Part shown: piece by piece, positions 950 through 28,800 of the stretch
Layout of the letters: each line of letters opens with the position of its first letter
How positions within the stretch are numbered: position 1 is the stretch's first letter
NCBI RefSeq assembly: GCF_018977255.1
Contig: NW_024704752.1
Coordinates: forward strand, 806,001-870,000
Length of the DNA: 64,000 bases
DNA from: Callorhinchus milii
Taxonomy: Eukaryota
Reading direction: 5' to 3'
Translations under genes and position numbers: made by a program
Notes under the pieces: model-generated
The model's database searches: none
What the model was told of the DNA's origin: nothing
Seen by the model: only the letters and a program-made list of their open reading frames with translations

Positions 950-3900
950 ATGTACCGTCTATTTTTGTGCTTACTCTTTGCTAGTTCTATGTGGGAATCA
1001 AATGAAGAGACCTGCAAACTACAAGGAACATTTAATTTACCCCAAATATCGAAAGATGGCGATATCGTTCTAGGAGGGATTTTTAATATACACGCTGGTC
1101 GATTAATTCAAATTAATTCTTTTTTTACTGCACCCGAAGAAACAAAATGCAGAAGGTGAGCTCTGTAATCTGATGGAACATGGTCTGTTTTTCTACTGTT
1201 TGTAGAGCAATTACTCCCAGGTCCCTCACGATGGGATTTCGATAACTGAATTCAAATCACAGGAGTGGATTGTGATCACAAAATATTGCGACATTTTAGT
1301 TATTTCATGCAATGGCATCAGTGGCTAGAGAAGTTAATTGTGCACATATATATATATATACTAGATATTATAATTTCTACTAAGTCCTTACAAAGTACCT
1401 CGACCTATTTTGATTTATTTTCTTAACATCCAATGTAGTTTTGAATTACTTTCCAATTTCCAGATATCAATGGTGATTAGATCCATGTTGCTCTTGAGTA
1501 ATCACAACTCTATAGTAATCAGTTTGCCCAACACTGTATTTTGATTAGATGTTTCAAGCTGCTCACCTTCAATTTGTTATCTATGCTAACTTTGTGGTAA
1601 AATTTAACATCAAATTGTATTTACATACGGCCCAGAGTAGTACCTTCGAGCACTTATTTTGAGCGTAACAGACGGATCTTTCTCTTCATTGTACAAAATC
1701 GAAATATTAGCATTAATTATATGTAGCAATTACCTAATTCATCCATTTATTGCCCAGTTTTGATTTCAGAGTCTTTCGCCTTGTGAACACAATGATTTTT
1801 GCAATTGAGGAAATAAATCAGAACAGAGCGATGCTGCCTAATGTTACATTGGGCTATACCATTTATGATGCCTGTGGGTCTCCCACCATTGCGACTAAAA
1901 TAGCTCTGGGTCTTATGAATGGTCAAAAGGAAGAAGAAACAGAGAGTGGCGATGACTGTCAAGAATCTCCCAGTATCCCAGCTCTAGTTGGTGCTGACGG
2001 ATCCTCAGAATCCATGGCAGTGGCAAGATTAATAGCTCCTTTCAGAATTCCAATGGTAAGTTCACATAATTAGTTACTGGTTAATACTTGGTAAATTACT
2101 ATTTAGCAAAATAAAACTATAATATCCTACAGAAACAATAAAAGTAGAACAAATATTACACATTGAAATTATACTGACATGCATTCAATGTTTTAGTTCT
2201 GCAAAATAATCCAGACAAATCTGTTCTGTTTACGTTCATTAATACACAATGGGAACATTGCTAAACTTATGATGGTTCCTTCATTCAAGGCAACAAATAC
2301 AATACACAACATATTGCATATAGCGCCTTTCGCATCTGGAGAATGTCCCGAGGCACTGGGCAGTGTATTCGAGTTGGGGATTGGAGTCAAAGGTGTGGAG
2401 GATAAGTTGGGGATGTGTGGAGCTGGGAGGATGAACGAAGACACGGTCAAAGAGGACGGTCTTTAGATGGGCCATAAACATAAGGAAGGGATCAAGGCAG
2501 AGGGGCTCCAAAGGCTGAGGTCACAAAGGCTGAATTCAAGAATGCTCAAGCTTGTATGTTGGGTGTCATTCATCCAAGGTATTTAGATTACGAAAATTAT
2601 CTTCAGATTCATCATCTGCCTACACTTATTTTATCAATTGCAGGTCAGTTACTTTTCCACCTGCGTCTGTCTCAGTGACAGGAAAGAATTTCCCACCTTT
2701 TACAGAACCATACCCAGTGACTACCATCAGTCCAAGGCTTTAGCTCAAATAATTAAGAAGTTTGGATGGACGTGGATTGGGACTGTAAGAACCAACAATG
2801 ACTATGGTAACTTTGGAATGCAGGCCTTTACAGAAATTGTCCAGAGACTTGACATTTGCATTGCCTTCTCTGAATCATTTTATAGAACTGATTCTCATGA
2901 AAAGATAACAAAAATTGTTAATATAATTAAATCATCTACAACTAAAGTGATTGTGGCTTTTGTTGCTAAAGGGGAAATGGAGATATTGCTTTCGGAAATT
3001 ATACGTCAAAATGTCACAGGAATACAGTGGATAGGAACAGAAGCTTGGATAACAGCCAAACTTACAACTCAAGGCGAAAGCACAAAATTCCTTATTGGGG
3101 CAATTGGTCCTTCAATTCGTCTGATGGAAGTAAAAGGATTGCAAGAATTTCTTCTCAAAATTCATCCTTCATTTTTTCCCGGAAATAGTTTAGTAAAAGA
3201 ATTTTGGGAAACTGCGTTCGACTGCATATTCTGGTCAGAAAACACAAGCCAAATACGTACAACATCCACATTGCAGCAATGCACCGGCAATGAAGATTTA
3301 ACAGAAATACAAAATGCATATTCTGATGTATCTATGGATGGAAGTTCCTACAATGTATACAAAGCAGTGTACGCTGTGGCTCATGCACTTCACAATATGC
3401 TTTTGTGTGAGAAAGGAAAAGAACCATTCATAGATAATACAAGTAATCCATGTGCACGTTTATCAAAATTTCAACCATGGGAGGTAAGAACATATTTAAT
3501 AAATCAACACTGTTTTATTGCACCTAATGCATTAGTGAAATGTTTGCATCAAATTGGCATGTTGGCGTCAGCCTGCAGACTTCTCGACTTCTCAGACCGA
3601 AGCCTGAAGAGGACACATTTGCAGGGCTATGGGAAGAGAGCTGGGTAGTGGGATTGATTTGGAAGCTCTTTCAAAAGAGCTGGTGCAGACATGATGGACC
3701 AAATGGCCTCCTTCTGTGCTGTATAATTCTATGAGAAGATTGTGTATTTAAGCTATACATTAGGACTTTCAACTCACATTTTAAGCTGACATTTCCTGTT
3801 GTGCTGGGAAGCACTGATTTGTTAGAGTTGCCTTCTTCTAAGTGGAATATTAAACCTCTATCCTGTCTGCCTTTTCAAGTGGACATTTAAAATCCCAAGG

Positions 3901-6900
3901 CACTCGAAAAGGCAGCTTCTCCCAGGGTTCCTGGTAAATAATTATAGAATCATAGAATCATACAGTACAGAAAGACGACATTCAGCCCATTCTGTCTGGG
4001 CCAGCTCCGAAAAGAGCAATCTAACTCAATCCCACTATTTCTTTCTTAAAAGTTGTTATTGAATCGGCTCCCACTACCCTTTCAGGTAATGCAGTAAAGA
4101 TCCCAACAACTCACTGGTGAAAACATTTTTCCTAACCTCTCCTCTGTTTCTTTTAACAACTATCTTAAATCGGTGTCCTCGGGTTACTGACCCACCAGTG
4201 GAAACAGTTTTCCCGGTTCAATCTATCAAATCCTCTCATGATCTTGAAAACCTCTATTAAATCCTCTTCTGGTGAGAATAATTCTAGTTTCGTTAACCTC
4301 TCCTCATAACTAAGGTCCTTCATTCCTGGTACCATTGGGTAAACCTCCTTTGCATCCTCTCCAATGCCCGAACATCTTTCCTAAAGTGCGGTGCCCAGAA
4401 CTGAACACAGTCTCCAACTGAGGCCTAACCAGCATTTTATAAATATTCAACATAACCTCCTGACGTTTGAATTCTATGCCCCTATTTATAAACCCTAGTA
4501 ACCCGTATGCTTTTTTAACAGCTTTATCTACCTGTCCTGCCACCTTCAGAGATCTGCTCATGTGGACCCCCAGGTCTCTCTGTTCATTTGCCCCCTTTGA
4601 AATTGTACCATCAGCTTACATTGCCTCCTCATTCTTCCTACCAAAATACAACACTTCGCATTTCTCCACATTAAATCTCATCTATCACATTTCTGCCCAT
4701 TTTACCAATCTGTCTAAGTCCTCCTGTAGTCTGGTACTATCCTCCTCACCGTTAACTGCTTTTCCGAGCTTAGTATCGTCTGCAAATTTGGAAATTGTGC
4801 TCCCGATATCCAGGTCCAGATTATTAATATAGATCAGAAAGAGCAGTGGTCCCAATACCAACCCCTGAGGGACACCACTACACATCTCCCTCCAGTCAGA
4901 AAAGCAACCGTTTACTACCACTCTCTGCTTTCTGTCTCCCAGCCAGTTCTGGATCCATGTTGTCACAGTCCCTTTAATACCGTGGGCTTCTATTTTGTTT
5001 ATAAGTCTCATATGTGGCACTTCTTATGTGTCTCTTATGTGTCAAATCCTTTTGAAAATCTAGATAAACTACATCTACTGCACTACCTTCATACACCCTC
5101 TCAGTCACTTCATCAAAAAATTCTATTAGGTTTGTGAGACACGATCTGTCTTTAACAATTCCGTGTTGACTGTCCTTTACTAAGCCATATTTTTCTAATG
5201 ATATTCATAATTGACTTTCTTCACGGCTGTTTGTGGGACATTGCAGTCAGCAAGTTGGCTGCTGAATTCATCAAGATATACAGTTACTATATTTTATAGT
5301 ATATCCTGTAAAGCCCCTTCAAATGTCTCTTGATGTGAAACATGCTACATGAACTGCAAGGATTACTGTTTTTATTATTTTAAAATTATCTTTTGGATGG
5401 TATTTGACTGTTCAAGTACTGTAGACTAAAGTGCATATGTTAACAAATTTGATGAGGCATGATGAACTGCCAATTTATAAAACCATTTTTTAAAATATTA
5501 TTAAAGCTTCTAGGTTACTTGCAATCAGTAAATTTCACAACTACATCAGGTGACAGTATTTATTTTGATGAAAATGGAGATTCAGTGGCCACATACGACT
5601 TGGTAAACTGGCGATTGAATTCGAAAGGTACTGTTGAAATTGGCATTGTTGGCTTCTACGATGGTTCTGCATTTCCAGGTCATGAACTAATGCTGGATGA
5701 AGAAGCTATTGTATGGAACAGTGGTCAAAATGAGGTACTGTATTTACGTACAAGTGGATTAAACTATTAATGTGAATTGCAACTGAATAATGTATTAATT
5801 TCATAGCCGTATTTACAACAGATTTTCTTCTTTACACAAGCCTTCGAAGCAAAAGGACAGACTGATGTACCATGTTATTTATGTAACCTTTACCATGAAT
5901 ATAAGTTTTAATGTTATAGTAAATAAATTGGATTGGATTCGACTCATTAGACAGTGATACAGGCTACGTGGTTAAACAAAGTGATACAGCGCAGATGGCA
6001 GTAGATTGACAAAGGTGGATATTTGAAGGAATTATAAAAAATTTACAGAATAGAAACAAATGTCTCAAAACCATATTAGATATCATATATTCACGCAAGA
6101 GCTTGTTTCATTTATGCAGAAAATTATTTTAACAATGCTGTATTTATCATTGAGTCCTGAATTTGCATCAATCTAATTTATGAAGAATTCAGCCTACAAC
6201 AATTTGTCTGACAGATTTATCCAAGGCAACTTTGTATAATTTTAGTTTCTAGATAGTTTTGTGAAATAGAAACTGGCCCAAGCTTTAAACTTGTACATAT
6301 CTGGATCAAATGAACAGCTCTAACCCCTGCGTCACCACAATCAATGGCCACTTTGTTATGTTTCTACTCTGTAGGATTTGCTGATATCTCATTGCCTTTT
6401 TTTTAAACATTATTTAAGTGCAACTTCCATCATTCTCACCAACCATAAGTGATGGCAAGTGACATGTTGGTGACAAGCCCTCCATTAGAAACCAAGAGTT
6501 ATCTATTTTTCAATAATTTGGGTTGAATAACATAATTTGTTCGAAGGCAATACTTCTGCAGCTCTAACGGGTACAAATATTTCATACATTTATTTAAGAA
6601 CATGTACTACACACATTTTGTATTGATCATTGCTAAAGGAGCTGATTTCTGTACCATGTTACACAAGTGTTATTATGCATACATAGGTTCCACGTGCGGT
6701 TTGCAGTGAGAGTTGTATTCCTGGAACAAGAAAAGTGACCAGAAAAGGGCGACCTGTGTGTTGCTTTGATTGTACAGAATGTGCTGAGGGAGAAATCAGC
6801 AATTTAACAGGTACCTTTATACTACGAAAATAAAGTTATTATTTCAAAAATTGTATATTCAAACATTCAGGCACGTTTTACCAATTAATGATAATATTTT

Positions 6901-7811
6901 TGGAAGATTCCACAGACTGCATTAAATGCCCTGAACAATATTGGCCCAATCAGCAGAGAGATCGTTGCCTACCAAAGGAAATAGAGTTCCTCTCCTTTAC
7001 CGAAATGCTGGGAGGTGTATTGCTGACATTGGCTCTGGTGGGAGTGAGCACCACAATAAGTATTACCATTGTCTTCTTCACACACAGAGACACTCCTATT
7101 GTTAAAGCCAACAATTCTGAGCTCAGCTATCTGCTTCTCTTTGCATTAACGCTGTGTTTTCTGTGCTCAGTGACTTTCATTGGCGAGCCCTCAGTCTGGG
7201 CTTGCATGTTGTGCCACACAGCATTCGCTATCGCTTTCGTTCTCTGTATTTCCTGTATTTTGATTAAAACAATCCTTGTGATTCTGGCGTTTAAGGCAAC
7301 TCTTCCAAACAACAACATGGCCAAATTGTTCGGGCCTGCTCAGCAGCGTTGGAGTGTATTCCTCCTTACCTCTGTTCAGTGCCTGATATGTACTCTCTGG
7401 TTAACTATATCACACCCATTTCCCATGAGAAACACAGAATATTACAGAGAGATTATCATTCTGGAATGTGACCTGGGCTCTGTGAGCGCCTTTTATTCTA
7501 TGGCGGGATATATTGCTTTCCTGGCCGGAGTGAGCTTTGTGCTGGCGTTTCTAGCTCGGAAATTACCTGATAACTTTAATGAGGCTCAATGTATAACCTT
7601 TAGCATGCTCATCTTTTGTGCTGTTTGGATCACTTTTATACCAGTTTACATCAGCTCTCCTGGGAAATACACCGTTGCTGTCGAAGTCTTTGCTATTTTA
7701 GCCTCGAGTTTTGGGTTATTGTTTTGTATTTTTGTTCCTAAGTGTTACATTATTTTGGTAAAACCTGAAATGAATACCAAAAAACACTTGATGGGCAAAG
7801 TGTCCAACTGA
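950..7811 (+). CDS. V2R/OlfC-type (CaSR-related) class C GPCR, gene 1, 6 exons, about 866 aa
   Basis: Exons 950-1155, 1758-2055, 2644-3483, 5507-5734, 6687-6810, 6907-7811, all GT-AG, total 2601 nt in frame. Motifs: signal peptide, [57 protein letters not shown]. Confidence 0.93.
2295..2530 (-). mobile_element. L2 LINE 3' fragment
   Basis: Reverse complement of the 3' end and tail seen in other L2-like copies (GCGCTATATGCAA..., TTG-rich tail). Confidence 0.55.
3945..5200 (-). mobile_element. CR1 LINE 3' part (RT C-terminus), inserted in a DeuSINE-like relic
   Basis: Minus-strand ORFs contain [27 protein letters not shown] and LVRPQLE; CR1-type (ATTCTATG)n tail at 3945-3960. A Deu-like segment lies at about 3830-3944 and a SINE tail resumes at about 5210-5370. 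Confidence 0.88.
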
Positions 7812-9062: not shown

Positions 9063-12000
9063 ATGTATGTGGGAAATATGTTTTACTTTTTCCTGTTAGA
9101 ATTGCTCAGACTTGAGGCCGGATGGGGAAGCGGTGAATATAGTTGTAAACTTCAAGGGAAGTTCGATTTACCTGAACTGTCAAAGGACGGAGACATCATT
9201 CTGGGGGGACTTTTTAACTTGCACATGGACAGGGTTGAGAATGTGCATTCCTTTACTGTCCGGCCAAAAGCAGAACAGTGCAAACGGTGAGTGGATTCTC
9301 AGAGTAATTTATAAAAAGCTATAGTTAAGTGTATAGTAAATGTATATGGGTGTCTGACACATGTGGAAACCCACCAACATGCCTTCGAGTATCCAAACCA
9401 AGCTGACATTTCCATGCATTCTGCCTACAAGTCCTGTAGCTCAGTGGTTGGAGCACTCGCCTCGCAAGTGAGAGACCTTGGCTCGATTCCTGGCTGGGTG
9501 AAATGTTGGTCAAGTTTCTTTACTCCACATGCCTCTGTTTACCTTGCAGTAAGGAGAAACAGGGTTAATAGGCGATTGTCAGATCAGTTTACTGGGAGTA
9601 ATAATTGCTTAAAAAAAAATGGGTCACTTGAATGCACGACTGTGGAGGGACGCTGCTCTGCGCAATTAGTTGCTGCATTTCACCCACAAAATATGCAGTC
9701 AATTTACCTTGCAGTATATTCTGTGAAGCGCTTTGAGACATCTCGAAGACGTGAGAAGGTGCTATTTACAAATGGGAATCCCAGCAATAGATTGTTGGAA
9801 TGGAATGCGCGCTCTCTCCCTGGAGGGAAGCATCCTGCCTACCTAATTCCGGAAAGTATTAAGCGCAGATTAGCAAGAGCCAAGGGTTGGAGAGCCCAGA
9901 GGGTGCGTTGGGTTACTGCTGGAGTCTAACCAGTTAAAACCACATAGCTCGCCATTGGTATTAATGCCCGGCAAGCTTTCCCGCTACTTGTCCAGTGAGG
10001 AGCACCCTACCCATTAGTGCTTTGGCTGCAGGGTTTTCAGGAGCTGAGTGAGATGACTCCCTGCCCCAGTGACTGGTCTGCTCTTCCAGGTCCTGCCGAT
10101 GATTCAGCTGGGCTGTGCTGTCATTAGCAGTGCCCTGGAATACCACAAACCCACTTGTCTTTGGAACCGATTTCGTCCGGCTTTGGTTATCCTCAAACGA
10201 GGAGAGTCACTCGTTGTTTGTTCGACATCCAACAAGCATGGGTTTGACCCCTCACAAGGTGGTTGGTTTGTATAACGTGCACCTTGCGAGTTTCCTGGTG
10301 AGCAACGCATCTCAGCATGAAATGCATGAGGGCATTTGTCACCATCTTCCTACCCACAGATCAGGCACACATCCCTTCCAATTGACCGATACTTCCACCA
10401 TTTGGAGGTGCTTAGTTTAAGCAGCAGTTGCTTGCCTCTCTGAAGGACAAACAAGGTGGATTCCAGGTAATGGACGTTCAAACATATGTTCAAGGATTCA
10501 GACTCCAGGTAACGCTGTAAGGAAACAGACAGAAAGGTGCAATTGAGATCGCAAATCCAATTAGTAATTGCAAAAAGGCAAATCACTGATCTACCAATTT
10601 ACCAAACTGTAACATTGAATAAATGGCTATTGACTGTAATACGATTGATGTTTTCTCGTAGTACCGATTTTCAGCCAGTAATGAAAACACCTGATCTCAT
10701 TCCATGAAGCTAATAATTTGTGTAACTCCAAAGGTTTGATTTCAGAGGCTTTCGCTTGGCTCAGACCATGATTTTTGCCATCGAAGAAATCAACAGAAAT
10801 CATCTCCTTTTGCCAAATGTCACACTGGGATTCAGGATCCACGATGATTGTGCGTCATCCAAGATTGTGACAAAAGCGGCCTTAGCTCTTGTTAATGGGG
10901 AGGAAACCGGTTTGGGTTATTCTTGCACAGGACAATCTAATGTCATCGGGATCGTTGGCACACAAGGATCCTCTGAGTCTATTGCAGTAGCAAGAGTTAT
11001 TGGTCCTTTTCAAGTTCCAATGGTAACGTTGTATGTTTCTAGTAGCATAATGTTTGCAAGGTACATATTACGATAACATAATTCTGTGCACATTTAATCC
11101 AAACTATATACAGTATTGTCTGTTGATGATAATATTTTTGCTGAAATAAAATATTCAATTATTAGACTGAAGATTAGTTTTACCAATTATGATAATCTGG
11201 TAAAACTGTGAAAGCACTTTTCCACTTCCTGATGGAAATCTCTCTGATATAAACATGAACACTACACAAGCATACACACACACACGTACACATTGTTTTC
11301 CATTGAATTCAGATTTATTTTTCTGCATTTTTCCAATATTTCATTCATGATAAGCAAAAATATGTCATGAAAGTTGCGCATTGAAAACATATACAAATAA
11401 GTAGTTTTAGCTGTTTAGACTCCAACAGTTATCCCAATGCACATCCTGAGGGCTCTAGCCAATCTGCGTCTAATACTCTCTGGAATTATGCAATGAGAAT
11501 TGGTCCCTGCAACGACACAGTGCTAATTCCATTAAAACCTTCTAGAATTTGATTTTCTCTTATCAAATGAAAGAATTATACAAATTGATTAGTGTGAGTT
11601 TAAATTCTTTATGTACCACCAAAAGAGAAAATAAAAAAGGCAATAAGACTATTCTATATTGGAAATACATAAATACACGTTCACTGTAATGGAAATTGTA
11701 GTTACATATTGTCAATTAAACCATAACCTACTAATTCTCATTCACAACATTTTGAAGCTTAAATAAGTGGAGTCTATATCTTAAGCTACCCTGAGTTCAA
11801 TAATGACTCAGCAACTTATGAGTTTTCAAGTATTCAGGATTTGCTTTTAGAGATCAAATATATTAATGATAATCTAAATGTCTTTTATCAATCACAGGTC
11901 AGCTACTTTTCCACTTGTGTTTGTCTCAGCAATAGGAACGAATACCCCGTATTTTACAGAACTATACCCAGTGACTACCATCAGTCCAAGGCTTTAGCTC

Positions 12001-15000
12001 AAATCATTAAGAAGTTTGGATGGACGTGGATTGCGACTATCAGAAGCAACAATGACTATGGTAACTTTGGAATGCAGGCATTTGTAGACATTGCGCAGGA
12101 ACTTGGCATTTGCATTGCCTTCTCGGAATCATTTTATAGAACAGATCCACTTGAAAAGTTAAAAAAAATTGTAAATATAATTAAATCATCTACAACTAAA
12201 GTGATTGTGGCTTTTGTTGCTAAAGCGGATATGGAGATATTGCTCACGGAAATTATAAGTCAAAATGTCACAGGAATACAGTGGATAGGAACAGAAGCTT
12301 GGATAACAGCCAAACTCATTTCTCCAGAAGAAAGTGTAAGATTTCTCATTGGGACAATTGGCCCTGCAATTCCTATGTTAGAAGTAAAAGGATTGCGAGA
12401 ATTTCTGCTTAAAATCCATCCTTCTAGTTTTCCCGGAAATGCTTTTGTGAAGAAATTTTGGGAAACTGCGTTCCAATGTACATTCCCATCAGGAAACACA
12501 AGCCAAATAACTGCTTTATCCACATGGCAACAATGCACCGGCAAAGAAGACCTGACACAAATACACAATGTATATTCTGATGTCAGTGTGGATGGAAGTT
12601 CTTACAATGTGTATAAAGCTGTGTACGCATTTGCTCATGCACTTCACAATATGCTCTCGTGTGAGAAAGGAAATGAACCATTTATGAACAATACCTGTGC
12701 ACGTGTGTCAAATTTTCAACCATGGCAGGCAAGAAAATTATGTAATTGAACATAGTTATTTAGCGTCGAGTTTATAATGTATTTGTCAAATGTTGCATTT
12801 CCTTTATAAACTTAATTATTGATCTTTAACTGTTATTTCAATGTTCAAGTAACAAAAAAAACAAAAAGATTTGAGAATTTTCTATTACCATGTTGTTTTT
12901 CATATTGTTGAACAGCTTCTTCACTACCTACAGTCTGTAAATTTCACAACTACATCCGGTGACAGGGTTTATTTTGATGGAAATGGAGATCCGGTGGCCA
13001 TGTACGACTTGATAAACTGGCAAATCGATTCGAGAGGTGTTTCTGAAATTAAAATAATTGGATCCTACGATGGGTCTGCGTCTCCGGGTCATGAATTAAC
13101 CCTGGACGAGGAGGCTATTGTATGGAAGAGTGGTCAAAACAAGGTATCTTTCAGCAGATATGGTTTTGATACTAAAGTAGGTTATCTATTTTGTCACAGA
13201 TTGCAATGTTATGTAGCAACTTCAAACAGAGTCATTGTGTGCGCACAAACCTAATTTATTTGTAAAGTATAATTAATGCAAAACACAAATTCGACTAAAA
13301 CATGGAGTGAAAGATGTGAGACATACGGAGGGGAGCAATGATTTTTTGAATTTGGAAGGAATGCTTCTTGGAGAAGGAAACACTTCTATAAATGGTTTGT
13401 ACACTTCCACCTGGTAAAGAACACTATAAGAGGGTACAAAATGGTTCTATTCAGATAGAAATCAGTTTTACATTTCAATTAAGATTCATTTAAGTACATT
13501 AAGTAGAAAAGTGGTTACACGTAGAAAGATAAAAGGTCCCATTGGTGACTCACGTTACCAAATCGGTCAGATTGAGAATCATAGCACAAAAGGAGGCCAT
13601 TGCACCCATGACAATATAATAATGATATTAATAATAATCCTTGCATTTGATATAGCACTTTCTCACATCTTCTCGACGCCTCAAAGATCTTCACAGAATA
13701 TACTGCAAAGTGAATTGACTGTATAATTGTGGGCGAAACGCGACAGCCAATTGCACACAGCAGCGTCCCCACAAACAGTCGTGGATGGAAGTGAACAATT
13801 TTATTATTGTTTTTTTTTTGAAGGATTATTATCAGGTTTGTGGAGTAAGGAAACTTGCTCAAGGTTTCGCGCTGCCGGGAATTGAACCCAGGTCTTTCGC
13901 TTGCGAGACAAGTGCTCTAACCACTGAGCTACAGGATTCGACTATATAGTTAAACCCATAAGAACCCACTTTCCCCAAAGTCTTGCAATTTTTTTTTCCC
14001 TTTCCCCATAGCCTGGGCCAATAGAAAATTGCGGATGCACATTTTTTTCCACGTAATTCACTACAAACAACCCCTGTTACAAACCTGCCACAGATGTAGT
14101 TTCTGGCCCGCGGACCTCCCGCCTGTTTACCTGACGTACATGTGGGTGGGGCGTAATATTCATATTACGTGCATTTTGTTTATTGTTTGTTACTTCATCA
14201 AAGAAATATTTTCATGTTAGACAATCAATGAGAGATTAGCAGATAGTGTAATTAGAGGTGACGCCCGGTGGAAAAGAAATTCTCCTAAGTATTCACTTGA
14301 CCATTTCGAAAGAATTAAAGAATTATTATTCAAGGACAACACATTTTCAAACAGTTCATATTTCAAATTCAAATAACCATTGATTCCATAATTAATAATA
14401 ATAACCCTTGCATTTGATATAGTGCGCAATCATGTCTTCTAGATGTCTCAAAGTGCTTCACAGAATATACTGTAAAGTCTAGTGACTGTGTTTTGTGGGC
14501 AAAATGCGGCAGCCAATTGAGCACAGCCGTGTTCCTCCAACAGTCATGGATTAAGTGACCAAATTATTATTATTATTATTTTTAAGGTAATATAACCCCC
14601 GGAAATGTGATCTGCCAATCGATTAACAACCGGATTCCTACTTACTGCTAGGTAAACAGGGGCGTGTGGAGTAAGAAAACATACCTTGTTTCGCCCTGCC
14701 CGGGAATGAAACCCAGGTCCTCTTACTTGTGAGGCGAATCCTCTAACCATTAAGCTACAGGACTCCACTTCAGGTGGTTGTTTCTTCAGTTCAGGCAATT
14801 AAACCACCAAATGATTGGAGCCTGTGAATTGGGTAACCTTTTCCCTGGAACCAAGTTTGATCATTTGGACTGCAGCAGGAATGTTGGTGCATGAAGCTAC
14901 AAAGTCCTGGAGTCCTGTAGCTCAGTGGTTAGAGCACTCGCTTTGCAAGTGAGAGACCTGAGTTCAATTCCAGGCAGGGCGAAACCTTGGGCAAGTTTCC

Positions 15001-15210
15001 TTACTCCACACGCCTAATAATAATCCCTCCAAAACTAAAAACAATAATTAAATTGGTCATTTTCAATCTACGACTGTTTGTGGGACATTGCTGTGCGCAA
15101 TTGGCTGCCGCGTTCGCCCACAAATATACAGTCAATTCACTTTACAGTGTGTTCTGTGAAGCGCTTTGGGACGTCCTCCCGACGTGAAAAGCGCTATATC
15201 AAATGCAAGG

Positions 15211-15251
<41 letters not shown>

Positions 15252-17702
15252 AGATCTTCCTGATATGCCCTTTTATCTTCATCAAAATAAGCACAAAGGC
15301 TAACTTCACTTGCAGCAGATGCATATATGTAATGCCTGAAAGTGGCTAGAGTGTAAGAATAGATAACACTGTGAGTAATGGTTCTTTCGGGTAGCATGGG
15401 AATGGGAGTCGAGGTCAAAAATGTTAGTTAGAATCCTCACAAATGGTGAGGGTTCAAGTGACCCTGTGGTAATGGAAGTAGGTGTTTGTTCCATTCAACA
15501 TACAATGCACTTCGTACTTCACATGTACCTCATGTACTTCATCTTCTGGGCAATGGCTGAACAATCATTAGACACCACCTAAACTTTGGATATGATAGCC
15601 ACATTTTAGGGTTACCTGAGCTCAGAATCCAAAATAAATATTGCACGGTATTTTAATATCGCAGATTTTTTTTAGGGGGGTGGAAGGCAGTTGAGGGCAG
15701 TGTTAATAACCTTTCATGAATATATCTTACTGCTAGGTAAACAGGGGCGTGTGGAGTAAGAAAACATACCCTGTTTCGCCCTGCCCGGGAATGAAACCCA
15801 GGTCCACTTACTTGTGAGAGGTTGATAACTTCATTTTATATCTAATTATTTAACGTGGTATTTCTTAATCGAAGATGCCACGTTCTGTTTGCAGTGAGAG
15901 CTGTATTCCTGGAACAAGAAAAGTTGCCAGAAAAGGCCAACCCGTGTGTTGCTTTGACTGTACAGAATGTGCTGAGGGAGAAATCAGCAACATCACAGGT
16001 GAGTGTAAAATTCCTCTTCCTATTTACAACAACCATTTGCCCTCCACACAGGGTAGCGTCTCAGAGCGCTTAACTGTGGCGGAGCCTGACTCTGATCTGG
16101 GCGTGGATAGCTGTCAGCACTGGCGAACACGAAAGAGGGGAGAGAGGGGGTGAGGTGGAAGGATTGAGGAAGAGTGTTCCAGAGTTTAGGGGAGTAGCAG
16201 CTGAAAGCACAACGTCCAATGGTGGGGCAGTGGGGGTGGGGGTTGAGCAGGAGGCTGGTGCCAGTCGATTTGGGAGTGAGGGGGTCGGAAGTGTAGGGAA
16301 TTGCCAGGGAGTGAATGGATTTGAACACGAGAGTGAGATCTTGACGTTGATCCGTTCGGTGATGGGGAGCGAGTGGAACCTGGGCCACAACTGGTGAGAT
16401 GTGGAGATTGGTCCGGCTCCGTATGCGGGCGGCAGAGTTTTGAATCAGCTGATCTTGTGAATGGTGGAGCTGGGGAGACAGGAGAAGTGTTTTGGAGCAA
16501 TCCAACCTGGAAGTGACAAACACGTGCACGAGGATTTTGGCTGCATTTCGGTAAGGTACGGTCGGAAGTGGGCAATATGGCAGAGGTGGAAGCAATCGGT
16601 TTTGATCAGGGACCTGATGTGGGGGAGGATGAACAGTTGGGGGTTGAACTGGACGCCGAGGTTGCGCACTGGTACAGTGAGTCTGAGGAAGAGCCCAGGA
16701 AGGCTGAGGAGTTGAGATCCACAGGAGATTTTTGAAAACTCCCTTTAGTAATATTCATGCCATACTTACTGAATTATCGTACCTTTCCCAGATTCCACAG
16801 ACTGCATTAAATGCCCTGAACAATATTGGCCCAATCAGCAGAGAGATCGTTGCCTACCAAAGGAAATAGAGTTCCTCTCCTTTACCGAAATGCTGGGAGG
16901 TGTATTGCTGACATTGGCTCTGGTGGGAGTGAGCACCACAATAAGTATTGCCATTGTCTTCTTCACACACAGAGACACTCCTATTGTTAAAGCCAACAAT
17001 TCTGAGCTCAGCTATCTGCTTCTCTTTGCATTAACGCTGTGTTTTCTGTGCTCAGTGACTTTCATTGGCGAGCCCTCAGTCTGGGCTTGCATGTTGTGCC
17101 ACACAGCATTCGCTATCGCTTTCGTTCTCTGTATTTCCTGTATTTTGATTAAAACAATCCTTGTGATTCTGGCGTTTAAGGCAACTCTTCCAAACAACAA
17201 CATGGCCAAATTGTTCGGGCCTGCTCAGCAGCGTTGGAGTGTATTCCTCCTTACCTCTGTTCAGTGCCTGATATGTACTCTCTGGTTAACTATATCACAC
17301 CCATTTCCCATGAGAAACACAGAATATTACAGAGAGATTATCATTCTGGAATGTGACCTGGGCTCTGTGAGCGCCTTTTATTCTATGGCGGGATATATTG
17401 CTTTCCTGGCCGGAGTGAGCTTTGTGCTGGCGTTTCTAGCTCGGAAATTACCTGATAACTTTAATGAGGCTCAATGTATAACCTTTAGCATGCTCACCTT
17501 TTGTGCTGTTTGGATCACTTTTATACCAGTTTACATCAGCTCTCCTGGGAAATACACCGTTGCTGTCGAAGTCTTTGCTATTTTAGCCTCGAGTTGTGGG
17601 TTATTGTTTTGTATTTTTGTTCCTAAATGTTACATTATTTTGATAAAACCTGAAATGAATACCAAAAAGCACTTGATGGGCAAAGTACCTGTAAATAAAT
17701 AG
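9063..17702 (+). CDS. V2R/OlfC-type class C GPCR, gene 2, 6 exons, about 868 aa
   Basis: Exons 9063-9286, 10734-11022, 11898-12728, 12916-13143, 15875-15998, 16792-17702; total 2607 nt in frame. The intron 3 donor is GC (CAG|GCAAGA). Same class C motifs as gene 1. Confidence 0.9.
9348..10330 (+). repeat. Unclassified interspersed repeat (starts GGGTGTCTGACACATGTGGAAACCC) with nested SINE at about 9430-9770
   Basis: Homologous copies at about 23120-24125 (+), 31270-31700 (-) and 53410-53648 (-). Confidence 0.65.
13620..13940 (-). mobile_element. tRNA-derived SINE
   Basis: Reverse complement of the SINE at 1-311, head and tail present. Confidence 0.8.
14395..14768 (-). mobile_element. tRNA-derived SINE (older variant)
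   Basis: Reverse-complement SINE, head ends GCTACAGGACTCCA. Confidence 0.8.
14908..15250 (+). mobile_element. tRNA-derived SINE (young, long TTA tail)
   Basis: TGGAGTCCTGTAGCTCAGTGGTTAGAGC head through to a (TTA)n tail. Confidence 0.88.
16010..16715 (-). mobile_element. L2 LINE 3' fragment in gene 2 intron 5
   Basis: Minus-strand translation shows [18 protein letters not shown] and PKLWNTLP, typical of the L2 ORF2 C-terminus; absent from gene 3 intron 5. Confidence 0.82.
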
Positions 17703-18429
17703 TTATCATCTATAAATGCGGCATGATCTTCGGGAATATGATAAAAATGAAGGCAAATTCTGAAATAAATATAACAAGAATCATGTGCTTGTTTGTTTGT
17801 TTGTTTGTTGTCGATGTTCCATTGTTTGACATACAGTCGTAATTTAATCTGGTAAAATAAAGTCACTTTTAACATGTGATAAAAACACTGTTTTACAGTC
17901 AACAGCAATAAATGTATCATGCTTTGTCTTCCAAATTGTGGGTTAATTCCTTTCCAATGCAATTGATGTTTGAGTATATCCGAGAAACACAGATTTGTTT
18001 AACTCGAGGTCAACATGCCTTCTGTTTAGGCATTTATTTTCATGTGGAATCCCACAATGCCACTTGGATTACAATATATTTCACTGGATTTCCTTAATTT
18101 CTGTAAGTCAAACATCAACTCTTAAAATAGTAAACATTGATTACATTAAATTACTAAGAGGTCCATGTGGAAGTTTCAGAATAAATCACTTAAAGTCCGT
18201 CTGTCCAGCACATTGAGACATCCTCCCAACGTGAAAGAGGCTATACAAATGTAATTTTGTTGTTGTTGTTGAAAAAGCATCTTTATGTGCTCCCTCAAGA
18301 GTATTATGATCATCTGTCAATTGTCAATAAATCTGCATTCCATCACTGTGCATACATGTGCAATTCAGGGAATCCACTGTCATCACCCCCCTCCTCAAAA
18401 GAAAACACCCTTGAACCATCCAACCTCAC

Positions 18430-19105
18430 AACTTAACGACCTCTTTCCAGCCAGCCCTTCCTCGCCAAAGTTCTGGAACAAGTTGTCGCTAACCAGCTTT
18501 GCTCTCACCTCTCCCTTCACTCCCTCCTCAAGCCCCTCCAGTCTGTTTTCCGCACTGCCCATAGCACAGATACAGAGCTTCACAGGTCACAAACGATGAC
18601 CCCTCTCTCACTGTGACCAGGGCTCCCTCTGCCTCCTTGTCCTCCTGGACCACTCCGCCGCATTCAACGCAGTCGACCACACCATCTTCATCCTCCGCCT
18701 CTCCTCCCTCATCCACTTCAGTGGGATTGCATTCGCATGGTTCAAGTCCTACCTAACAAAAATGCCTTCACTTTACTTCCTCAAACAGTTTCTCCTCGCG
18801 CCCCTGCCCGGTCACCTGTGGTGTACACCAGGGCTCCATCCTTGGCCCCCTCCTATTCCTCATCTACCTGCTCCCTCTTGGCAATGTCATCCACAAACAT
18901 GGGGTAAACTTCCACATGTATGCTAATGACACACAAATCTACTTCTCCTCCTCCAGCTGCAACTCCAGGTCTGACGTTCTCTTGGCCTTTCTGGCCACAA
19001 TGAGTGAAAACATCCTACAACTCAATGTTGACAAGACGGGAGCCATGCTTGTTGGCTCCTGTCAACATCTTCTATCCTGCAGCTCTGATCTCCTCAACCT
19101 CCCCC
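18430..19105 (+). mobile_element. L2 LINE RT fragment, 3'-truncated at the duplication junction
   Basis: Degenerate [13 protein letters not shown] and YANDTQIY motifs; near-identical to 29960-30632. Confidence 0.82.
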
Positions 19106-19346
19106 TAAATTTAATGAGGCTCAATGTATAACCTTTAGCATGCTCATCTTTTGTGCTGTTTGGATCACTTTTATACCAGTTTACATCAGCTCTCCTGGGA
19201 AATACACCGTTGCTGTCAAAGTCTTTGCTATTTTAGCCTCGAGTTTTGGGTTATTGTTTTGTATTTTTGTTCCTAAGTGTTACATTATTTTGGTAAAACC
19301 TGAAATGAATACCAAAAAACACTTGATGGGCAAAGTATCCAACTGA
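19106..19346 (+). pseudogene. Orphan 3' fragment of a V2R exon 6 (TM6-TM7-C-tail, ends GKVSN*), copy of gene 1 7571-7811
   Basis: Near-identical to the end of gene 1 exon 6, followed by a copy of the gene 1 3' flank. Its 5' end is fused directly to a truncated L2 fragment, with no upstream exons. Confidence 0.9.
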
Positions 19347-19434
19347 AAAACTAGCTGCCTAGATATGTAGAGATGCAGCTAAAAGCGAACATAATTTAAA
19401 TGCAGGTTAGTTTTACTGAAATGTATCAAGAATA

Positions 19435-22833: not shown

Positions 22834-25800
22834 ATGTATGTGGGAAATATGTTTTACTTTTTCCTGTTAGAATTGCTCAGACTTGAGGCCGGATGGGGAA
22901 GCGGTGAATATAGTTGTAAACTTCAAGGGAAGTTCGATTTACCTGAACTGTCAAAGGACGGAGACATCATTCTGGGGAGACTTTTTAACTTGCACATGGA
23001 CAGGGTTGAGAATGTGCATTCCTTTACTGTCCGGCCAAAAGCAGAACAGTGCAAACGGTGAGTGGATTCTCAGAGTAATTTATAAAAAGCTATAGTTAAG
23101 TGTATAGTAAATGTATATGCGTGTCTGACACATGTGGAAACCCATCGACATGCCTTCGAGTATCCTAACCAAGCTGAGATTTCCATACTTACACATGGAA
23201 ATTCCAGAGATAGATTGTTTGAATGGAATGCGCACTCTCTCCGTGAAGGGTGGCATCCTGCTCACCTAATTCTGAAAAGTATTAATAATAATCCTCGCAT
23301 TTTATATAGTGCCTTATCACATCTTCGAGACGTCACAATGCACCTCACAGAATATACTGTAAAGTGAATTGATTGTATATTTTATGGGTAAAACGAAGCA
23401 GCCAATTGCACACAGCAGTTTCCTCCAACAGTCGTGGGTTGAGTGACCAATTTTTTTTGAAGGTATTATTACCCAATCGACTGACAACCGGGTTTCTTCT
23501 TACTGCTAGTTAAACAGAGGCATGTGGAGTAAGAAAGCTTGTCCAGGATTTCCCCCTGATGGGCTTTTGAGGCGAGTGCTCTAACCACTGAGCTGCAGGA
23601 CTGCACAGGTTGGCAACAACCAAGGGTTGGGGAGCCCAGAGTGTGCATTTGTGGTACTGAGTCTAACTTGCTAAAACCACATATCATGCCATTGATATTG
23701 CTGTCCGGCAAGCTTTCCCAATGGTTGTCCAGCCAGGACCACAGTACTCATTTGGCTTGCAGGGATAACCCGAGCTGAGCAGTATGACTCCCTGTCCCCA
23801 GTGACTGGTCTGTTCTTCAAGGTCCTGCCGATGAGCCAGGCTGAGTGTGGTGTCATCAGCACTGCCCTGGAATCCTGCAGAAATGTCTGACTCAGGAAAT
23901 GGACTACCGAGCCCACCACAGAGGGCTGGCTCAATTCCAACTTTCCATTGCCAGGCATATCAACTTGAAGATAGCTCAACTCCAACGAGACCCTCCTTCA
24001 TCCCCCCACCCCACCCCGGTTGGTCCACATCCGACATGCACGTTTTTTCAGCCTCACTAGGTGAATGGTAGGCACAAGGAACTCCCTGCAAGCTTCCCGG
24101 TGGGCAACCCATCTCAGCATGAAATGATAACAGATAATTGATAAAAGATAACTGACAGGAAGATGTAATTGATTATAGTCTCTGAGAACTCAAATCCAAT
24201 TAGTAATTGCAAAAAGGCAAATCACTGATCTACCAATTTGCCAAACTGTAACATTGAATAAATGGCTATCGACTGTAATACAATTGATGTTTTCTCATAG
24301 AAACTATTTTCAGCCAGTAATGAAAACATCTGATCTCATTCCATGAAGCTAATAATTTGTGTAACTCCAAAGGTTTGATTTCAGAGGCTTTCGCTTGGCT
24401 CAGACCATGATTTTTGCCATCGAAGAAATCAACAGAAATCACCTCCTGTTGCCAAATGTCACACTGGGATTCAGGATCCACGATGATTGTGCGTCATCCA
24501 AGATTGTGACAAAAGCGGCCTTAGCTCTTGTTAACGGGCAGGAAACCGGTTTGGGTTATTCTTGCACAGGACAATCTAATGTCATCGGGATCGTTGGGAC
24601 ACAAGGATCCTCTGAGTCTATTGCAGTAGCAAGAGTTATTGGTCCTTTTCAAGTTCCAATGGTAATGTTGTCAAATCCAAATCATTCAGAACTCTGCTGC
24701 CCGCAGACCAAACTCCACACCCCCAACTCATCAGTTCTGGCCAGGCTCCACTGGCTCCCCATCACTGAATGGATCGCCTTCAAGAGGCTCACATTCGTGT
24801 TCAAATCCCTTCACTCTCTAGCACGTCCACCCCTCTCCGACCTTCTCATGCCCCAATCCACCATCCGGCACCTCTACTCCACTGGCTCCAGCCTCCTGCT
24901 TGTCCCTCGCACCCTCTTCTCCACCATTGGAGCCGCATTCAGTGACTATGTCCCAGAGCTCTGGACCACTCTACTCTCCCTCAAACCCTCTGCTTTGCCC
25001 ACCCTCTCCCCTTCCTCAAGTCCGGACTGAAAAATGTATTTTCGACTGTGCTTACGGTCACCTCCCACCATCACCCCCCCATTACCCCACTGGCTTGGAT
25101 TCAGGCTCCTCAACTGTTAAGCGCTCTGAGATGCTACCTGCATGGATGGCGCTATATAAGTGCGAGTTATTTTTCTATGTTTCTAGTAGCATAATGTTTG
25201 CAGGGTACATAATAAAATAATATAATTCTGCACATTTAATGCAATGTTATACACAATATAATCTATTGACAATAATGTTTTTTGCTTAAATAAAATATTC
25301 AGTTATTAAATTATACTGAAGATTAATTTTACCAATTATGATAATGCATTTATCTGGTATAACCGTGAAGACACTTTTCCACTTCCTCACAGAAATCAAT
25401 CTGGTATAAATATGATCACTGCACACACACATACACTTTTCTACGCTTTACTATTACTAGTGAATAATAAATAATTTACTATTATTTTGTTCATGATTCT
25501 CAGAATACATAGCCCTGGCATGAATCATTTGGACCCTTTTCAAGTTACAGAATTTAACAAAATGGATGAGCGCATGTTTAAATTCTTTATGTACCCACCG
25601 AAAGAGAAAATAAAAAAGGCAAAAGACTATACTGTATTGGAGATACATAGTTAAACGTTCACTGTAATGGAAATTGTTATTACTGTCAATTAAACCATAT
25701 TCTACTAATTCTCATTCACACGACTTGGAATTTTACACAAGTGATGAACCTATATTTTAAGCTACATTAAGTTAAGTAAAACTTCAGCAATTTATGGGAT

Positions 25801-28800
25801 TTGCTTTTAGAGATCAAATATATTAATGATATTCTAAATGTCTTTTATCAATCACAGGTCAGCTACTTTTCCACTTGTGTTTGTCTCAGCAATAGGAACG
25901 AATACCCTGTGTTTTATAGAACCATACCCAGTGACTACCATCAGTCCAAGGCTTTAGCTCAAATCATCAAGAAGTTTGGATGGACGTGGATTGGGACTAT
26001 CAGAAGCAACAATGACTATGGTAACTTTGGAATGCAGGCATTTGTAGACATTGCGCAGGAACTTGACATTTGCATTGCCTTCTCTGAGTCATTTTATAGA
26101 ACTGATTCTCATGAAAAGATAAGAAAAATTGTAAATGTAATTAAATCATCAACAACTAAAGTGATTGTGGCTTTTGTTCCCATGGGGGAAATGCGGATAT
26201 TACTCAAAGAAATTATAAGTCAAAACGTCACTGGAATTCAGTGGATAGGAACTGAAGGGTGGACGACATCCCAACTGATTTCTCCAGAAGAAAGTGCAAG
26301 ATTTCTCATTGGGACAATTGGCCCTGCAATTCCTATGTTAGAAGTAAAAGGATTGCGAGAATTTCTGCTTAAAATCCATCCTTCTAGTTTTCCCGGAAAT
26401 GCTTTTGTGAAGGAATTTTGGGAAACTGTGTTCCAATGTACTTTCCCATCAGGAAACACAAGCCAAATAACTGCTTTATCCACATGGCAACAATGCACCG
26501 GCAAAGAAGACCTGACACAAATACACAATGTATATTCTGATGTCAGTGTGGATGGAAGTTCTTACAATGTGTATAAAGCTGTGTACGCATTTGCTCATGC
26601 ACTTCACAATATGCTCTCGTGTGAGAAAGGAAATGAACCATTTATGAACAATACCTGTGCACGTGTGTCAAATTTTCAACCATGGCAGGCAAGAAAATTA
26701 TGTAATTGAACATAGTTATTTAGCGTCGAGTTTATAATGTATTTGTCAAATGTTGCATTTCCTTTATAAACTTAATTATTGATCTTTAACTGTTATTTCA
26801 ATGTTCAAGTAACAAAAAAAACAAAAAGATTTGAGAATTTTCTATTACCATGTTGTTTTTCATATTGTTGAACAGCTTCTTCACTACCTACAGTCTGTAA
26901 ATTTCACAACTACATCCGGTGACAGGGTTTATTTTGATGGAAATGGAGATCCGGTGGCCATGTACGACTTGATAAACTGGCAAATCGATTCGAGAGGTGT
27001 TTCTGAAATTAAAATAATTGGATCCTACGATGGGTCTGCGTCTCCGGGTCATGAATTAACCCTGGACGAGGAGGCTATTGTATGGAAGAGTGGTCAAAAC
27101 AAGGTATCTTTCAGCAGATATGGTTTTGATACTAAAGTAGGTTATCTATTTTGTCACAGATTGCAATGTTATGTAGCAACTTCAAACAGAGTCATTGTGT
27201 GCGCGCAAACCTAATTTATTTGTAAAGTATAATTAATGCAAAACACAAATTCGAGTAAAACATGGAGTGAAAGATGTGAGACATACGAAGGGGAGCAATG
27301 ATTTTTTTGAACAGGAAAGATTGCTTCTCAGAGAAGGAAGCACTTCTATAAATGGTTTGTACACTTCCACCTGGTAAAGAACATCAAACGTGGGTACAAA
27401 ATGTTTTCTTCTGGCTACTCACATGGATCTTGGTTTTACATTTCAATTAAGATTCATTTAAGACTAGTACATTAAGTAGAAATGTGGTTTTCTGTAGAAA
27501 GGAAAAAGTTCCTATTACTGTCTCATGTTACCAAATCAGTCTAATTTAGAATCGTACAAAAGGAGACCATTAATAATAATAATAATAATAATAATCCTTG
27601 CATTTGATATAGCGCTTTTCATGTCTTCTCAACGTCCCAAAGCGCTTCACAGAATTACGGTAAAATGACTGTATATTTGTGGGCGAACGCGGCAGCCAAT
27701 TGCGCACAGCAATGTCCCACAAACAGTCATGGATTGAAAATGACCAATTTATTATTGTTTTTTTTTGAAGGGACCATTGGACCCAAGATTGTCACCCATG
27801 TGACAATCTTTCTATTGCATGCACTTTTATTTATTGTTAGTTAATTCCTAAAACAATATTTTCAGCTGAATTAACCAATGAGAGAATTCCATATGATGTA
27901 AATAGAGGTCACTTCCACTAAACTATAAACTCCTTATGCAGTAAGGTATTCAGTTGACCGATTCGAAAGAAACAAAGAAATATAATTCAAGGACAATACA
28001 TTTTCAAATAGTTCAGACTTGTTATTCAAATAACAAAGCAGCCCACAAAATCAGTTGCCATGAAACAGCTCGATAACTTTGTTCTTCATTCAATGTGTTA
28101 TTTTTAATCCAAGGTTCCACGTGCGGTTTGCAGTGAGAGCTGTATTCCTGGAACAAGAAAAGTTGCCAGAAAAGGCCAACCCGTGTGTTGCTTTGACTGT
28201 ACAGAATGTGCTGAGGGAGAAATCAGCAACATCACAGGTGTGTTCATACCTGTCTACACTATTTGAACAAACCTCTCATGCAATGTTCATGCAAAACTTA
28301 ATTATCGTACCTTTCCCAGATTCCACAGACTGCATTAAATGCCCTGAACAATATTGGCCCAATCAGCAGAGAGATCGTTGCCTACCAAAGGAAATAGAGT
28401 TCCTCTCCTTTACCGAAATGCTGGGAGGTGTATTGCTGACATTGGCTCTGGTGGGAGTGAGCACCACAATAAGTATTGCCTTTGTCTTCTTCACACACAG
28501 AGACACTCCTATTGTTAAAGCCAACAATTCTGAGCTCAGCTATCTGCTTCTCTTTGCATTAACGCTGTGTTTTCTGTGCTCAGTGACTTTCATTGGCGAG
28601 CCCTCAGTCTGGGCTTGCATGTTGTGCCACACAGCATTCGCTATCGCTTTCGTTCTCTGTATTTCCTGTATTTTGATTAAAACAATCCTTGTGATTCTGG
28701 CGTTTAAGGCAACTCTTCCAAACAACAACATGGCCAAATTGTTCGGGCCTGCTCAGCAGCGTTGGAGTGTATTCCTCCTTACCTCTGTTCAGTGCCTGAT

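What the first reader, a model, noticed from the sequence alone, without database searches (positions are those of the whole stretch)
12100..12320. Patchwork hypervariable window in exon 3 near the predicted ligand pocket
Seen: genes 2 and 3 are almost identical on both sides (11838-12100 and about 12320-13330, including intron 3) but differ strongly here. Gene 3 matches gene 1 first (LDIC...RTDSHEKI). Gene 2 then matches gene 1 ([16 protein letters not shown]...[10 protein letters not shown]), while gene 3 reads [12 protein letters not shown]...GTEGWTTSQ, partly like genes 4, 5 and 7. Established: in class C GPCRs the loops after V(I/V)V(A/L)F and around W-x-(G/A)-S-(E/D) line the lobe 2 side of the ligand cleft. 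Inference: short conversion tracts and/or positive selection tune specificity.
Basis: partly seen in the sequence, partly recalled or inferred. Interest (0 to 1): 0.7.

Follow-up and report, generated by a model that had tools for sequence, protein, structure and literature searches.

The report
Smell receptors swap ligand-pocket loops
In a chimaera's cluster of smell-receptor-like genes, two near-identical neighbours differ almost only in one short stretch, where one of them matches a third neighbour and likely copied it; the stretch is predicted to line the odour-binding pocket, so the swap would likely change what the receptor detects.

Summary
Observation confirmed. Genes 2 and 3 (fish-type V2R/OlfC; database names say Callorhinchus milii) differ at 33 of 221 nt here but at 6 of the next 992. 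The patch is a mosaic. Codons 93-139 of gene 2 match gene 1 (6/144 differences against 78/411 downstream; 8 of the 9 sites private to genes 1+2 lie here, 4 of them silent). Codons 70-88 of gene 3 match gene 1. Gene 3's VPMG/GWTTSQ has no donor and looks native. Codons 107-113 and 133-140 align without gaps to CaSR 271-277 and 297-304, which line the cleft; codons 70-89 map mostly outside it. In 16 further paralogs upstream, codons 108-110 are a sharp diversity peak (pi 0.42 against 0.005) while the 7TM exon is about 99% identical in all 19 genes. Site models favour positive selection at codon 109 (M8/M8a P about 1e-4), but a free-dS test and a second array give omega about 1. Public contigs show the junction, so it is not an assembly artefact. 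This is a known mechanism (divergence peak under conversion), newly resolved in a V2R array. The scan already noted half-gene swaps on neighbouring DNA.

The parts
12174..12316 (+). Gene 2, exon 3 codons 93-139: segment shared with gene 1 (lobe-2 pocket lid: beta strand VIVAF, loop 107-113, helix, strand W-I-G-T-E, loop 133-140)
   Evidence: 6/144 differences from gene 1 against 24/144 from gene 3; 8 private g1+g2 sites at codons 113-139; g1+g2 clade 100/99, g2+g3 clade rejected p-AU 0.005
2920..3060 (+). Gene 1, exon 3 codons 93-139: likely donor of gene 2's segment
   Evidence: direction inferred from branch lengths
26065..26121 (+). Gene 3, exon 3 codons 70-88: segment shared with gene 1 (gene 1 2851-2907); may extend to codon 107
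   Evidence: 2 private g1+g3 sites; fragment 70-107 with 5 mismatches in 48 polymorphic sites; clade support 92/87, not starred
12141..12164 (+). Gene 2 codons 82-89 (TDPLEKLK), same type as upstream Y-group paralogs
   Evidence: groups with u08/u10/u13
12216..12236 (+). Gene 2 hypervariable loop, codons 107-113 (VAKADME) = CaSR S271-E277
   Evidence: ungapped alignment to CaSR; 7 residues at codon 109 among 18 genes; diversity peak
26176..26196 (+). Gene 3 hypervariable loop, codons 107-113 (VPMGEMR)
12294..12317 (+). Gene 2 loop, codons 133-140 (EAWITAKL) = CaSR E297-L304
   Evidence: S302 = mGluR1 R323
26254..26277 (+). Gene 3 loop, codons 133-140 (EGWTTSQL); no donor among 19 paralogs
   Evidence: present in public contigs of run X1
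12338..13329 (+). Block recently homogenised between genes 2 and 3 (partner 26298-27289): 3' exon 3, intron 3, exon 4, start of intron 4
   Evidence: 6 differences in 992 nt while neighbouring introns differ by 15-25%
950..7811 (+). Gene 1, V2R/OlfC, 6 exons (950-1155, 1758-2055, 2644-3483, 5507-5734, 6687-6810, 6907-7811), open frame
9078..17702 (+). Gene 2, V2R/OlfC, 6 exons (9078-9286, 10734-11022, 11898-12728, 12916-13143, 15875-15998, 16792-17702), open frame, GC donor at intron 3
22849..29230 (+). Gene 3, V2R/OlfC, 6 exons (22849-23057, 24373-24661, 25858-26688, 26876-27103, 28114-28237, 28320-29230), open frame, GC donor at intron 3
16750..19104 (+). 7TM exon and 3' flank of gene 2, 99.2% identical to gene 3 (28282-30632); exon 6 also 99.3% to gene 1 (6905-7801)
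   Evidence: array-wide at most 18 differences in exon 6

Best explanation
Gene 2 is a mosaic V2R/OlfC receptor gene: its body matches gene 3, while a 140-nt stretch predicted to form the lobe-2 lid of the ligand cleft matches gene 1 and was likely copied from it by gene conversion, and selection likely keeps such pocket differences from being erased. Shown: the three sequence segments with three different nearest partners; the old age of the gene 2/3 duplication (introns 15-25% apart) with near-identical exon blocks; the same short loop as a diversity peak in two other paralog groups. Inferred: direction gene 1 to gene 2; that gene 3 keeps the native state at codons 108-140 and took codons 70-88 from gene 1; that later gene 2/3 homogenisation stopped at the pocket edge because overwriting was selected against; that the eight conserved residues still hold an amino-acid backbone while the swapped loops set side-chain preference.
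For: Clustering. Nearest-neighbour switch along exon 3. 9 sites in the whole coding sequence are private to genes 1+2 among 19 genes, 8 of them in codons 113-139, 4 silent, which convergence of amino acids cannot give. Trees differ by segment: g1+g3 (70-92), g1+g2 (93-140, 100/99), g2+g3 (141-exon 4, 100/100); the alternatives are rejected at p-AU 0.005 or less. Direction: in 93-140 the g1+g2 stem (0.12) equals gene 1's own branch downstream (0.12), and gene 3's branch (0.098) is close to the g2+g3 stem downstream (0.13). Mapping: exon 3 codon c = CaSR c+164 without gaps to codon 200; S272/D275 form a hinge site beside the amino-acid site and S302 equals mGluR1 R323 (PMC4928972); P274 lies 4.5 A from a bound peptide's side chain (PMC11785791). 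9 of the 16 changed residues fall in these two loops (15 of 71 codons). Diversity peak: 9 Y-group genes have pi 0.42 at codons 108-110 against 0.005 at 141-277; 5 X-group genes 0.38 against 0.024. M8 vs M8a 2dL=14.1, codon 109 posterior 0.997, 110 0.93, 113 0.89. Junction bridged in contigs of 3 of 4 public runs.
Against: With a free synonymous rate the loop has omega 0.63 (108-110: 0.85), not above 1. M1a vs M2a is only P=0.029. A second array of 13 genes shows no positive selection in exon 3 (M8a vs M8 P=0.17; 108-110 omega 0.98). Codons 133-140 are under purifying selection array-wide (omega 0.22). Segments were chosen after seeing the data, and recombination inflates site tests. A conversion tract also stops mechanically at diverged sequence. 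Codon 121 is shared by genes 2+3 inside the tract, and sites 103.3 and 107.2 by genes 1+2+3, so the history needs more than one event. Gene 2's own letters at 12226, 12230 and 12258 were not seen in the listed contigs of any of 4 runs. Gene 3 has G44R in the conserved GGLF motif of exon 1 and may be impaired. No ligand data.
Confidence: 0.6

Rival explanations
1. The conversions are real but neutral: tracts fall at random, the pocket loop is merely under relaxed constraint, and once it drifted apart it blocked further homogenisation.
For: Free-dS omega 0.6-1.0 in the loop; second array omega about 1 and no M8 signal; zebrafish OlfC distal pocket sites were reported as relaxed or neutral, not positively selected (PMC1764893); 104 of 171 gene pairs show a significant shared fragment in exons 3-4, so tracts are common.
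Against: A 9-nt island with 8 segregating sites sits amid 6 of 411 in nine otherwise homogenised genes (P=1e-4 for clustering) and recurs in the X group; escape from conversion predicts raised silent divergence too, so omega near 1 does not separate the two models; M8 vs M8a significant.
Confidence: 0.27
2. Same mechanism, other history: genes 1 and the ancestor of 2/3 exchanged codons 70-139 once; gene 2 then lost 70-89 and gene 3 lost 108-139 to tracts from upstream paralogs plus point changes.
For: Sites 103.3 and 107.2 are private to genes 1+2+3 and codon 121 to genes 2+3; gene 3 codons 111-130 are 2 differences from u09/u14; gene 2 codons 24-95 match Y-group genes.
Against: Gene 3's branch in 93-140 is as long as the Z-lineage stem downstream and the g1+g2 stem as long as gene 1's lineage; gene 3 codons 131-140 have no near partner (9-12 differences per 60 nt).
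Confidence: 0.1
3. The patchwork is an assembly or haplotype-switch artefact between near-identical repeats.
For: Array of 19 genes with 99% identical blocks; no contig spans the whole stretch; some gene-2 letters not seen in 4 runs.
Against: Contigs with gene-1-type letters running into the gene-2/3-type flank occur in X1, X2 and X4, one of them identical to gene 2 over 12287-12367; gene 3's GWTTSQ piece occurs in X1 with its 11 differences; gene 2's tract differs from gene 1 at 6 sites, so it is not a copy of gene 1's reads.
Confidence: 0.03

Closest known systems
Fish-type V2R / OlfC receptors (PMC1764893 passages; PMC6368271 passages; PMC9018814 passages)
   Same: Six-exon class C GPCR with ANF_receptor, NCD3G and 7tm_3 domains in a tandem array; 8 of 8 amino-acid-binding signature residues kept in 18 of 18 intact genes; variable distal pocket beside a conserved proximal pocket.
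   Different: Those studies treat genes as units; here a pocket-lid segment is traced from one paralog into another, and the 7TM exon is about 99% identical across genes whose ligand domains differ by up to 17% (exon 3) or about 39% (exon 2).
Gene conversion in catfish OlfC subfamily 9 (PMC6588630 passages and Supplementary Table 2 passage)
   Same: Conversion between tandem OlfC paralogs; variable selectivity sites; M8 signal in the N-terminal domain.
   Different: Two events of 136 and 186 aa are listed by length only in the passage seen; no link to the pocket; here tracts are about 19 and 47 codons and mapped.
Divergence peak under gene conversion, human red/green opsins (Teshima and Innan model, as reviewed in PMC3924837 passages)
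   Same: Old duplicates kept alike by conversion, with a local peak of silent and replacement divergence at the functional site.
   Different: Opsin tuning sites are proven by assay; here function is untested, and the peak in gene 2 was partly imported from a third gene.
CEACAM N-domain shuffling by conversion (PMC8860441 abstract); MHC patchwork alleles (recalled)
   Same: Conversion moves ligand-contact segments between paralogs.
   Different: Immune, pathogen-driven systems; this is a chemosensory receptor array.

Membership tests
Class C GPCR, V2R/OlfC | VFT + nine-cysteine domain + 7TM | tested here: met
   PF01094 E 3e-47, PF07562 E 3e-17, PF00003 E 3e-79
Class C GPCR, V2R/OlfC | Six-exon gene in a tandem array, open frame, proper splice sites | tested here: met
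   18 of 19 modelled genes open; u09 frameshifted
Class C GPCR, V2R/OlfC | Eight-residue amino-acid-binding signature | tested here: met
   S147, T170, R185, D190, Q193, Y218, G219, E297 (CaSR numbers) in 18 of 18 (motif from PMC1764893; its transfer to CaSR numbers is my inference)
Class C GPCR, V2R/OlfC | Phylogenetic placement in the f-V2R clade rather than CaSR | tested here: inconclusive
   Hits are fish and shark 'V2R1-like / CaSR-like' array proteins; no family tree with named subfamilies was built
Class C GPCR, V2R/OlfC | Expression in olfactory neurons and activation by amino acids | not testable with these tools
   No RNA holder listed; no assay
Interlocus gene conversion tract | Local switch of nearest paralog including silent sites, with both flanks unswitched | tested here: met
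Interlocus gene conversion tract | Non-reciprocal transfer with known direction | tested here: inconclusive
   Direction inferred from branch lengths only; double crossover not excluded
Selection-maintained divergence peak | Peak of divergence amid homogenised flanks in old duplicates | tested here: met
Selection-maintained divergence peak | omega above 1 at the peak | tested here: inconclusive
   M8 yes; free-dS no; second array no
Selection-maintained divergence peak | Functional difference caused by the peak residues | not testable with these tools
   needs ligand assays

The most novel reading that the evidence does not exclude
This array is a combinatorial odorant-receptor library: one shared, homogenised signalling module (cysteine-rich domain plus 7TM) is fronted by ligand domains built from interchangeable lobe halves and pocket-lid cassettes that conversion still shuffles in living animals, with selection guarding a three-codon specificity switch, MHC-style diversification of smell.
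Probability: 0.3. Interest if true: 0.7.

Novelty: new member of a known kind. Interest (0 to 1): 0.5.

Why it matters
V2Rs dominate smell in cartilaginous fish and none had been deorphanised as of PMC6368271. Genes 1, 2 and 3 are a natural segment-swap series with the same 7TM, so one assay can test whether the lobe-2 lid sets side-chain preference, and codons 108-110 give a short list of sites. It also warns that repertoire surveys built on the 7TM region (as in PMC9018814) will read these 19 genes as very recent near-identical copies although their ligand domains are old and mosaic.

Tried and rejected
AlphaFold2 on exon 3 with a 7-row alignment gave pLDDT 41: not used; mapping rests on the ungapped CaSR alignment and papers, no distances were computed. 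PDB search with gene 3's exon 1 found nothing, so G44R could not be mapped. No RNA holder listed. Laying contigs at 97% left a hole at about 12204-12286; a hole proves nothing, and the 80% lay filled it with gene-1-type and other paralog contigs. Gene 3-type letters at 12298-12317 were listed in X1 only and X3 showed no piece across the junction; contigs drop variants, so no copy-number claim is made. Exchange with window genes 4-7 rejected (68-73% DNA identity). A tree-free count gave N/S ratio 0.51 in the loop against 0.31 elsewhere: not evidence for omega above 1. My Sawyer-type test has a P floor of 0.0005 and 171 pairs, so it is not significant after Bonferroni on its own. Rows dropped: u09 (frameshifts) from codon models; from the second array 4 of 17 full exon-3 hits (3 distant, 1 with a broken exon 6) and one split hit. 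Paper searches for V2R conversion at the pocket found only the catfish case; one search found nothing; subscription papers are not held. The match of codon 134 to T1R1 A302 and codon 109 to T1R1 R277 rests on recalled numbering (roles), not on an alignment run here.

Full report
Setting. The window is G000:C11:806001-870000. It holds seven class C GPCR genes on the + strand. Pfam gives ANF_receptor, NCD3G and 7tm_3; the closest database proteins are named 'extracellular calcium-sensing receptor-like [Callorhinchus milii]' on a contig of the same length, followed by fish and shark V2R-like proteins. A search of the genome and 200 kb of upstream DNA gave 16 more close paralogs, u01-u16; 18 of the 19 modelled genes have open six-exon frames, u09 is frameshifted. 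All 18 keep the eight signature residues of amino-acid receptors (motif from PMC1764893, passages).

Observation. Confirmed. Of 47 differences between genes 2 and 3 in the ungapped block 11837-13330, 33 lie in 12106-12317; random placement gave at most 20 in 5000 trials. Sixteen codons change the residue and ten are silent. The duplication itself is old: alignable introns differ at 44/257, 38/247, 45/261 and 56/222 sites, while intron 3 differs at 0/187. So the flanks are re-homogenised blocks and the window is an island that was not homogenised.

Where the island comes from. The nearest paralog of gene 2 changes along exon 3: the whole array for codons 24-80, Y-group genes to about 90, gene 1 for 91-140, gene 3 after 141. 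Gene 2 differs from gene 1 at 6/144 nt in codons 93-140 but 78/411 in 141-277, and from gene 3 at 24/144 and 4/411. Nine sites in the whole coding sequence are private to genes 1+2 among 19 genes; eight lie in codons 113-139 and four of these are silent. Trees give g1+g3 for codons 70-92 (92/87), g1+g2 for 93-140 (100/99) and g2+g3 after 141 (100/100), and reject the other pairings at p-AU 0.005 or lower (segments chosen after seeing the data). Branch lengths fit gene 1 as donor and gene 3 as the native state. Gene 3's VPMG and GWTTSQ have no donor in the array; its R113 and K117 are ancestral, which explains the likeness to genes 4, 5 and 7. Not explained by one event: codon 121 is private to genes 2+3, and sites 103.3 and 107.2 to genes 1+2+3.

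Not an artefact. In contigs of four public runs (one study), pieces with gene-1-type letters running into the gene-2/3-type flank occur in X1, X2 and X4; one X2 piece equals gene 2 over 12287-12367, others carry an extra variant at 12308; an X1 piece has gene 3's 11 letters over 12267-12350. Against: gene 2's letters at 12226, 12230 and 12258 were not listed in any run; these differences from gene 1 form a short bubble that assemblers drop, or the animals carry other alleles.

Structure. Exon 3 codon c aligns to human CaSR residue c+164 without gaps up to codon 200. Codons 108 and 111 are S272 and D275, a hinge site next to the amino-acid site; codon 138 is S302, the equivalent of mGluR1 R323 that limits the ligand side chain (PMC4928972, passages); 138/139 are the S302/S303 ion site (PMC11252437, passages); codon 110 is P274, 4.5 A from the valine of bound gamma-Glu-Val-Gly (PMC11785791, section 6). 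Nine of the 16 changed residues fall in these two loops. Codons 70 and 84 are D234 and D248, listed at the lobe-2 dimer face, so the first half of the window is mostly outside the cleft. My own fold failed (pLDDT 41).

Selection. Codon 109 has seven residues among 18 genes. Nine Y-group genes have pi 0.42 at codons 108-110 (8 of 9 sites segregating) against 0.005 at 141-277 (6 of 411); five X-group genes 0.38 against 0.024; codons 80-92 form a second peak (0.14-0.15). With my own codon models on five segment trees (519 codons, 18 genes), M8 beats M8a (2dL 14.1, P about 9e-5; M8a optimum rechecked), with codon 109 at 0.997, 110 at 0.93 and 113 at 0.89; M2a beats M1a at P=0.029. But with a free synonymous rate the loop has omega 0.63, its replacement rate seven times and its silent rate twice that of the rest of the segment. 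A second array 9 Mb away varies at the same two places but shows no positive selection (13 genes, P=0.17; omega 0.98 at 108-110), in line with the relaxed distal pocket reported for zebrafish. Escape from conversion predicts raised silent divergence at a protected site (PMC3924837, passages), so these results do not exclude selection, but they do not prove it.

Wider pattern. Exon 6 differs at no more than 18 of about 905 nt among all 19 genes, while exon 3 differs at up to 141 of 831 and exon 2 at up to 113 of about 290. Mean four-fold divergence is 0.019 in exons 5-6 and 0.021 in exon 3 codons 24-80, against 0.18-0.41 elsewhere. Exon 1-2 types and exon 3-4 types occur in different combinations (u04, u16, gene 1, and window gene 6, whose exons 1-2 are 98-99% like gene 3 but whose exon 3 is 68%).

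Mechanism, committed. Conversion keeps the signalling module and the backbone-binding core alike across the array; conversion between diverged neighbours moves pocket-lid segments, as from gene 1 into gene 2; differences at the lid are likely kept because they give distinct side-chain preferences. Mosaic structure is shown; direction, selection and function are inferred (0.6 overall; about 0.9 for exchange alone).

Novelty. The mechanism is known from opsins and CEACAMs (PMC8860441, abstract); conversion among OlfC genes is reported in catfish (PMC6588630, passages and two supplement passages). Searches found no report of pocket-located tracts or a homogenised 7TM in a chimaera V2R array; PMC6368271, PMC9018814 and PMC3590772 (passages) give none in the passages seen. 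Verdict: real, new member of a known kind, interest 0.5.

Noticed in passing
window 22978 (gene 3 exon 1): The only exon-1 difference between genes 2 and 3 turns the conserved GGLF motif into GRLF (G44R); may impair folding of gene 3's receptor.
   Followed up: partly
window 49478-54834 (gene 6): Exons 1-2 are 98-99% identical to gene 3 while exons 3-6 are 68-75%; a hybrid between the array and a distant subfamily with the switch early in intron 2.
   Followed up: partly
window 12729-12730 and 26689-26690: GC-AG intron 3 in genes 2 and 3 (also GC donor of intron 5 in u11).
   Followed up: no
window 19106-19432: Orphan 3' piece of a 7TM exon followed by gene-1-type 3' flank; similar orphan exon pieces at C11:657015, 676899, 677925, 750029, likely scars of unequal crossing over.
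   Followed up: partly
G000:C11:636050-813811 and window genes 2, 3: 7TM exon about 99% identical in 19 genes, and exon 3 codons 24-80 homogenised across otherwise distinct ligand-domain types.
   Followed up: yes
G000:C11:9789000-9927000 (L051-L065): Second V2R array: main group differs 2-5% in exon 6 and 1-15% in exon 3, variable at codons 80-82 and 108-111; one member has Gly at codon 134 like gene 3.
   Followed up: partly
G000:C11:712824-722683: A rearranged pseudogene fragment and the frameshifted gene u09.
   Followed up: no
window 1-314, 13613-13947, 14908-15240, 21829-22153, 36898-37177, 51035-51369: A roughly 310-nt short interspersed repeat in many copies and both orientations, different in the introns of genes 2 and 3.
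   Followed up: no
window 12308, runs X1, X2, X4: A variant letter linked to the gene-1-type to gene-2/3-type junction, so the chimeric gene has more than one allele.
   Followed up: partly
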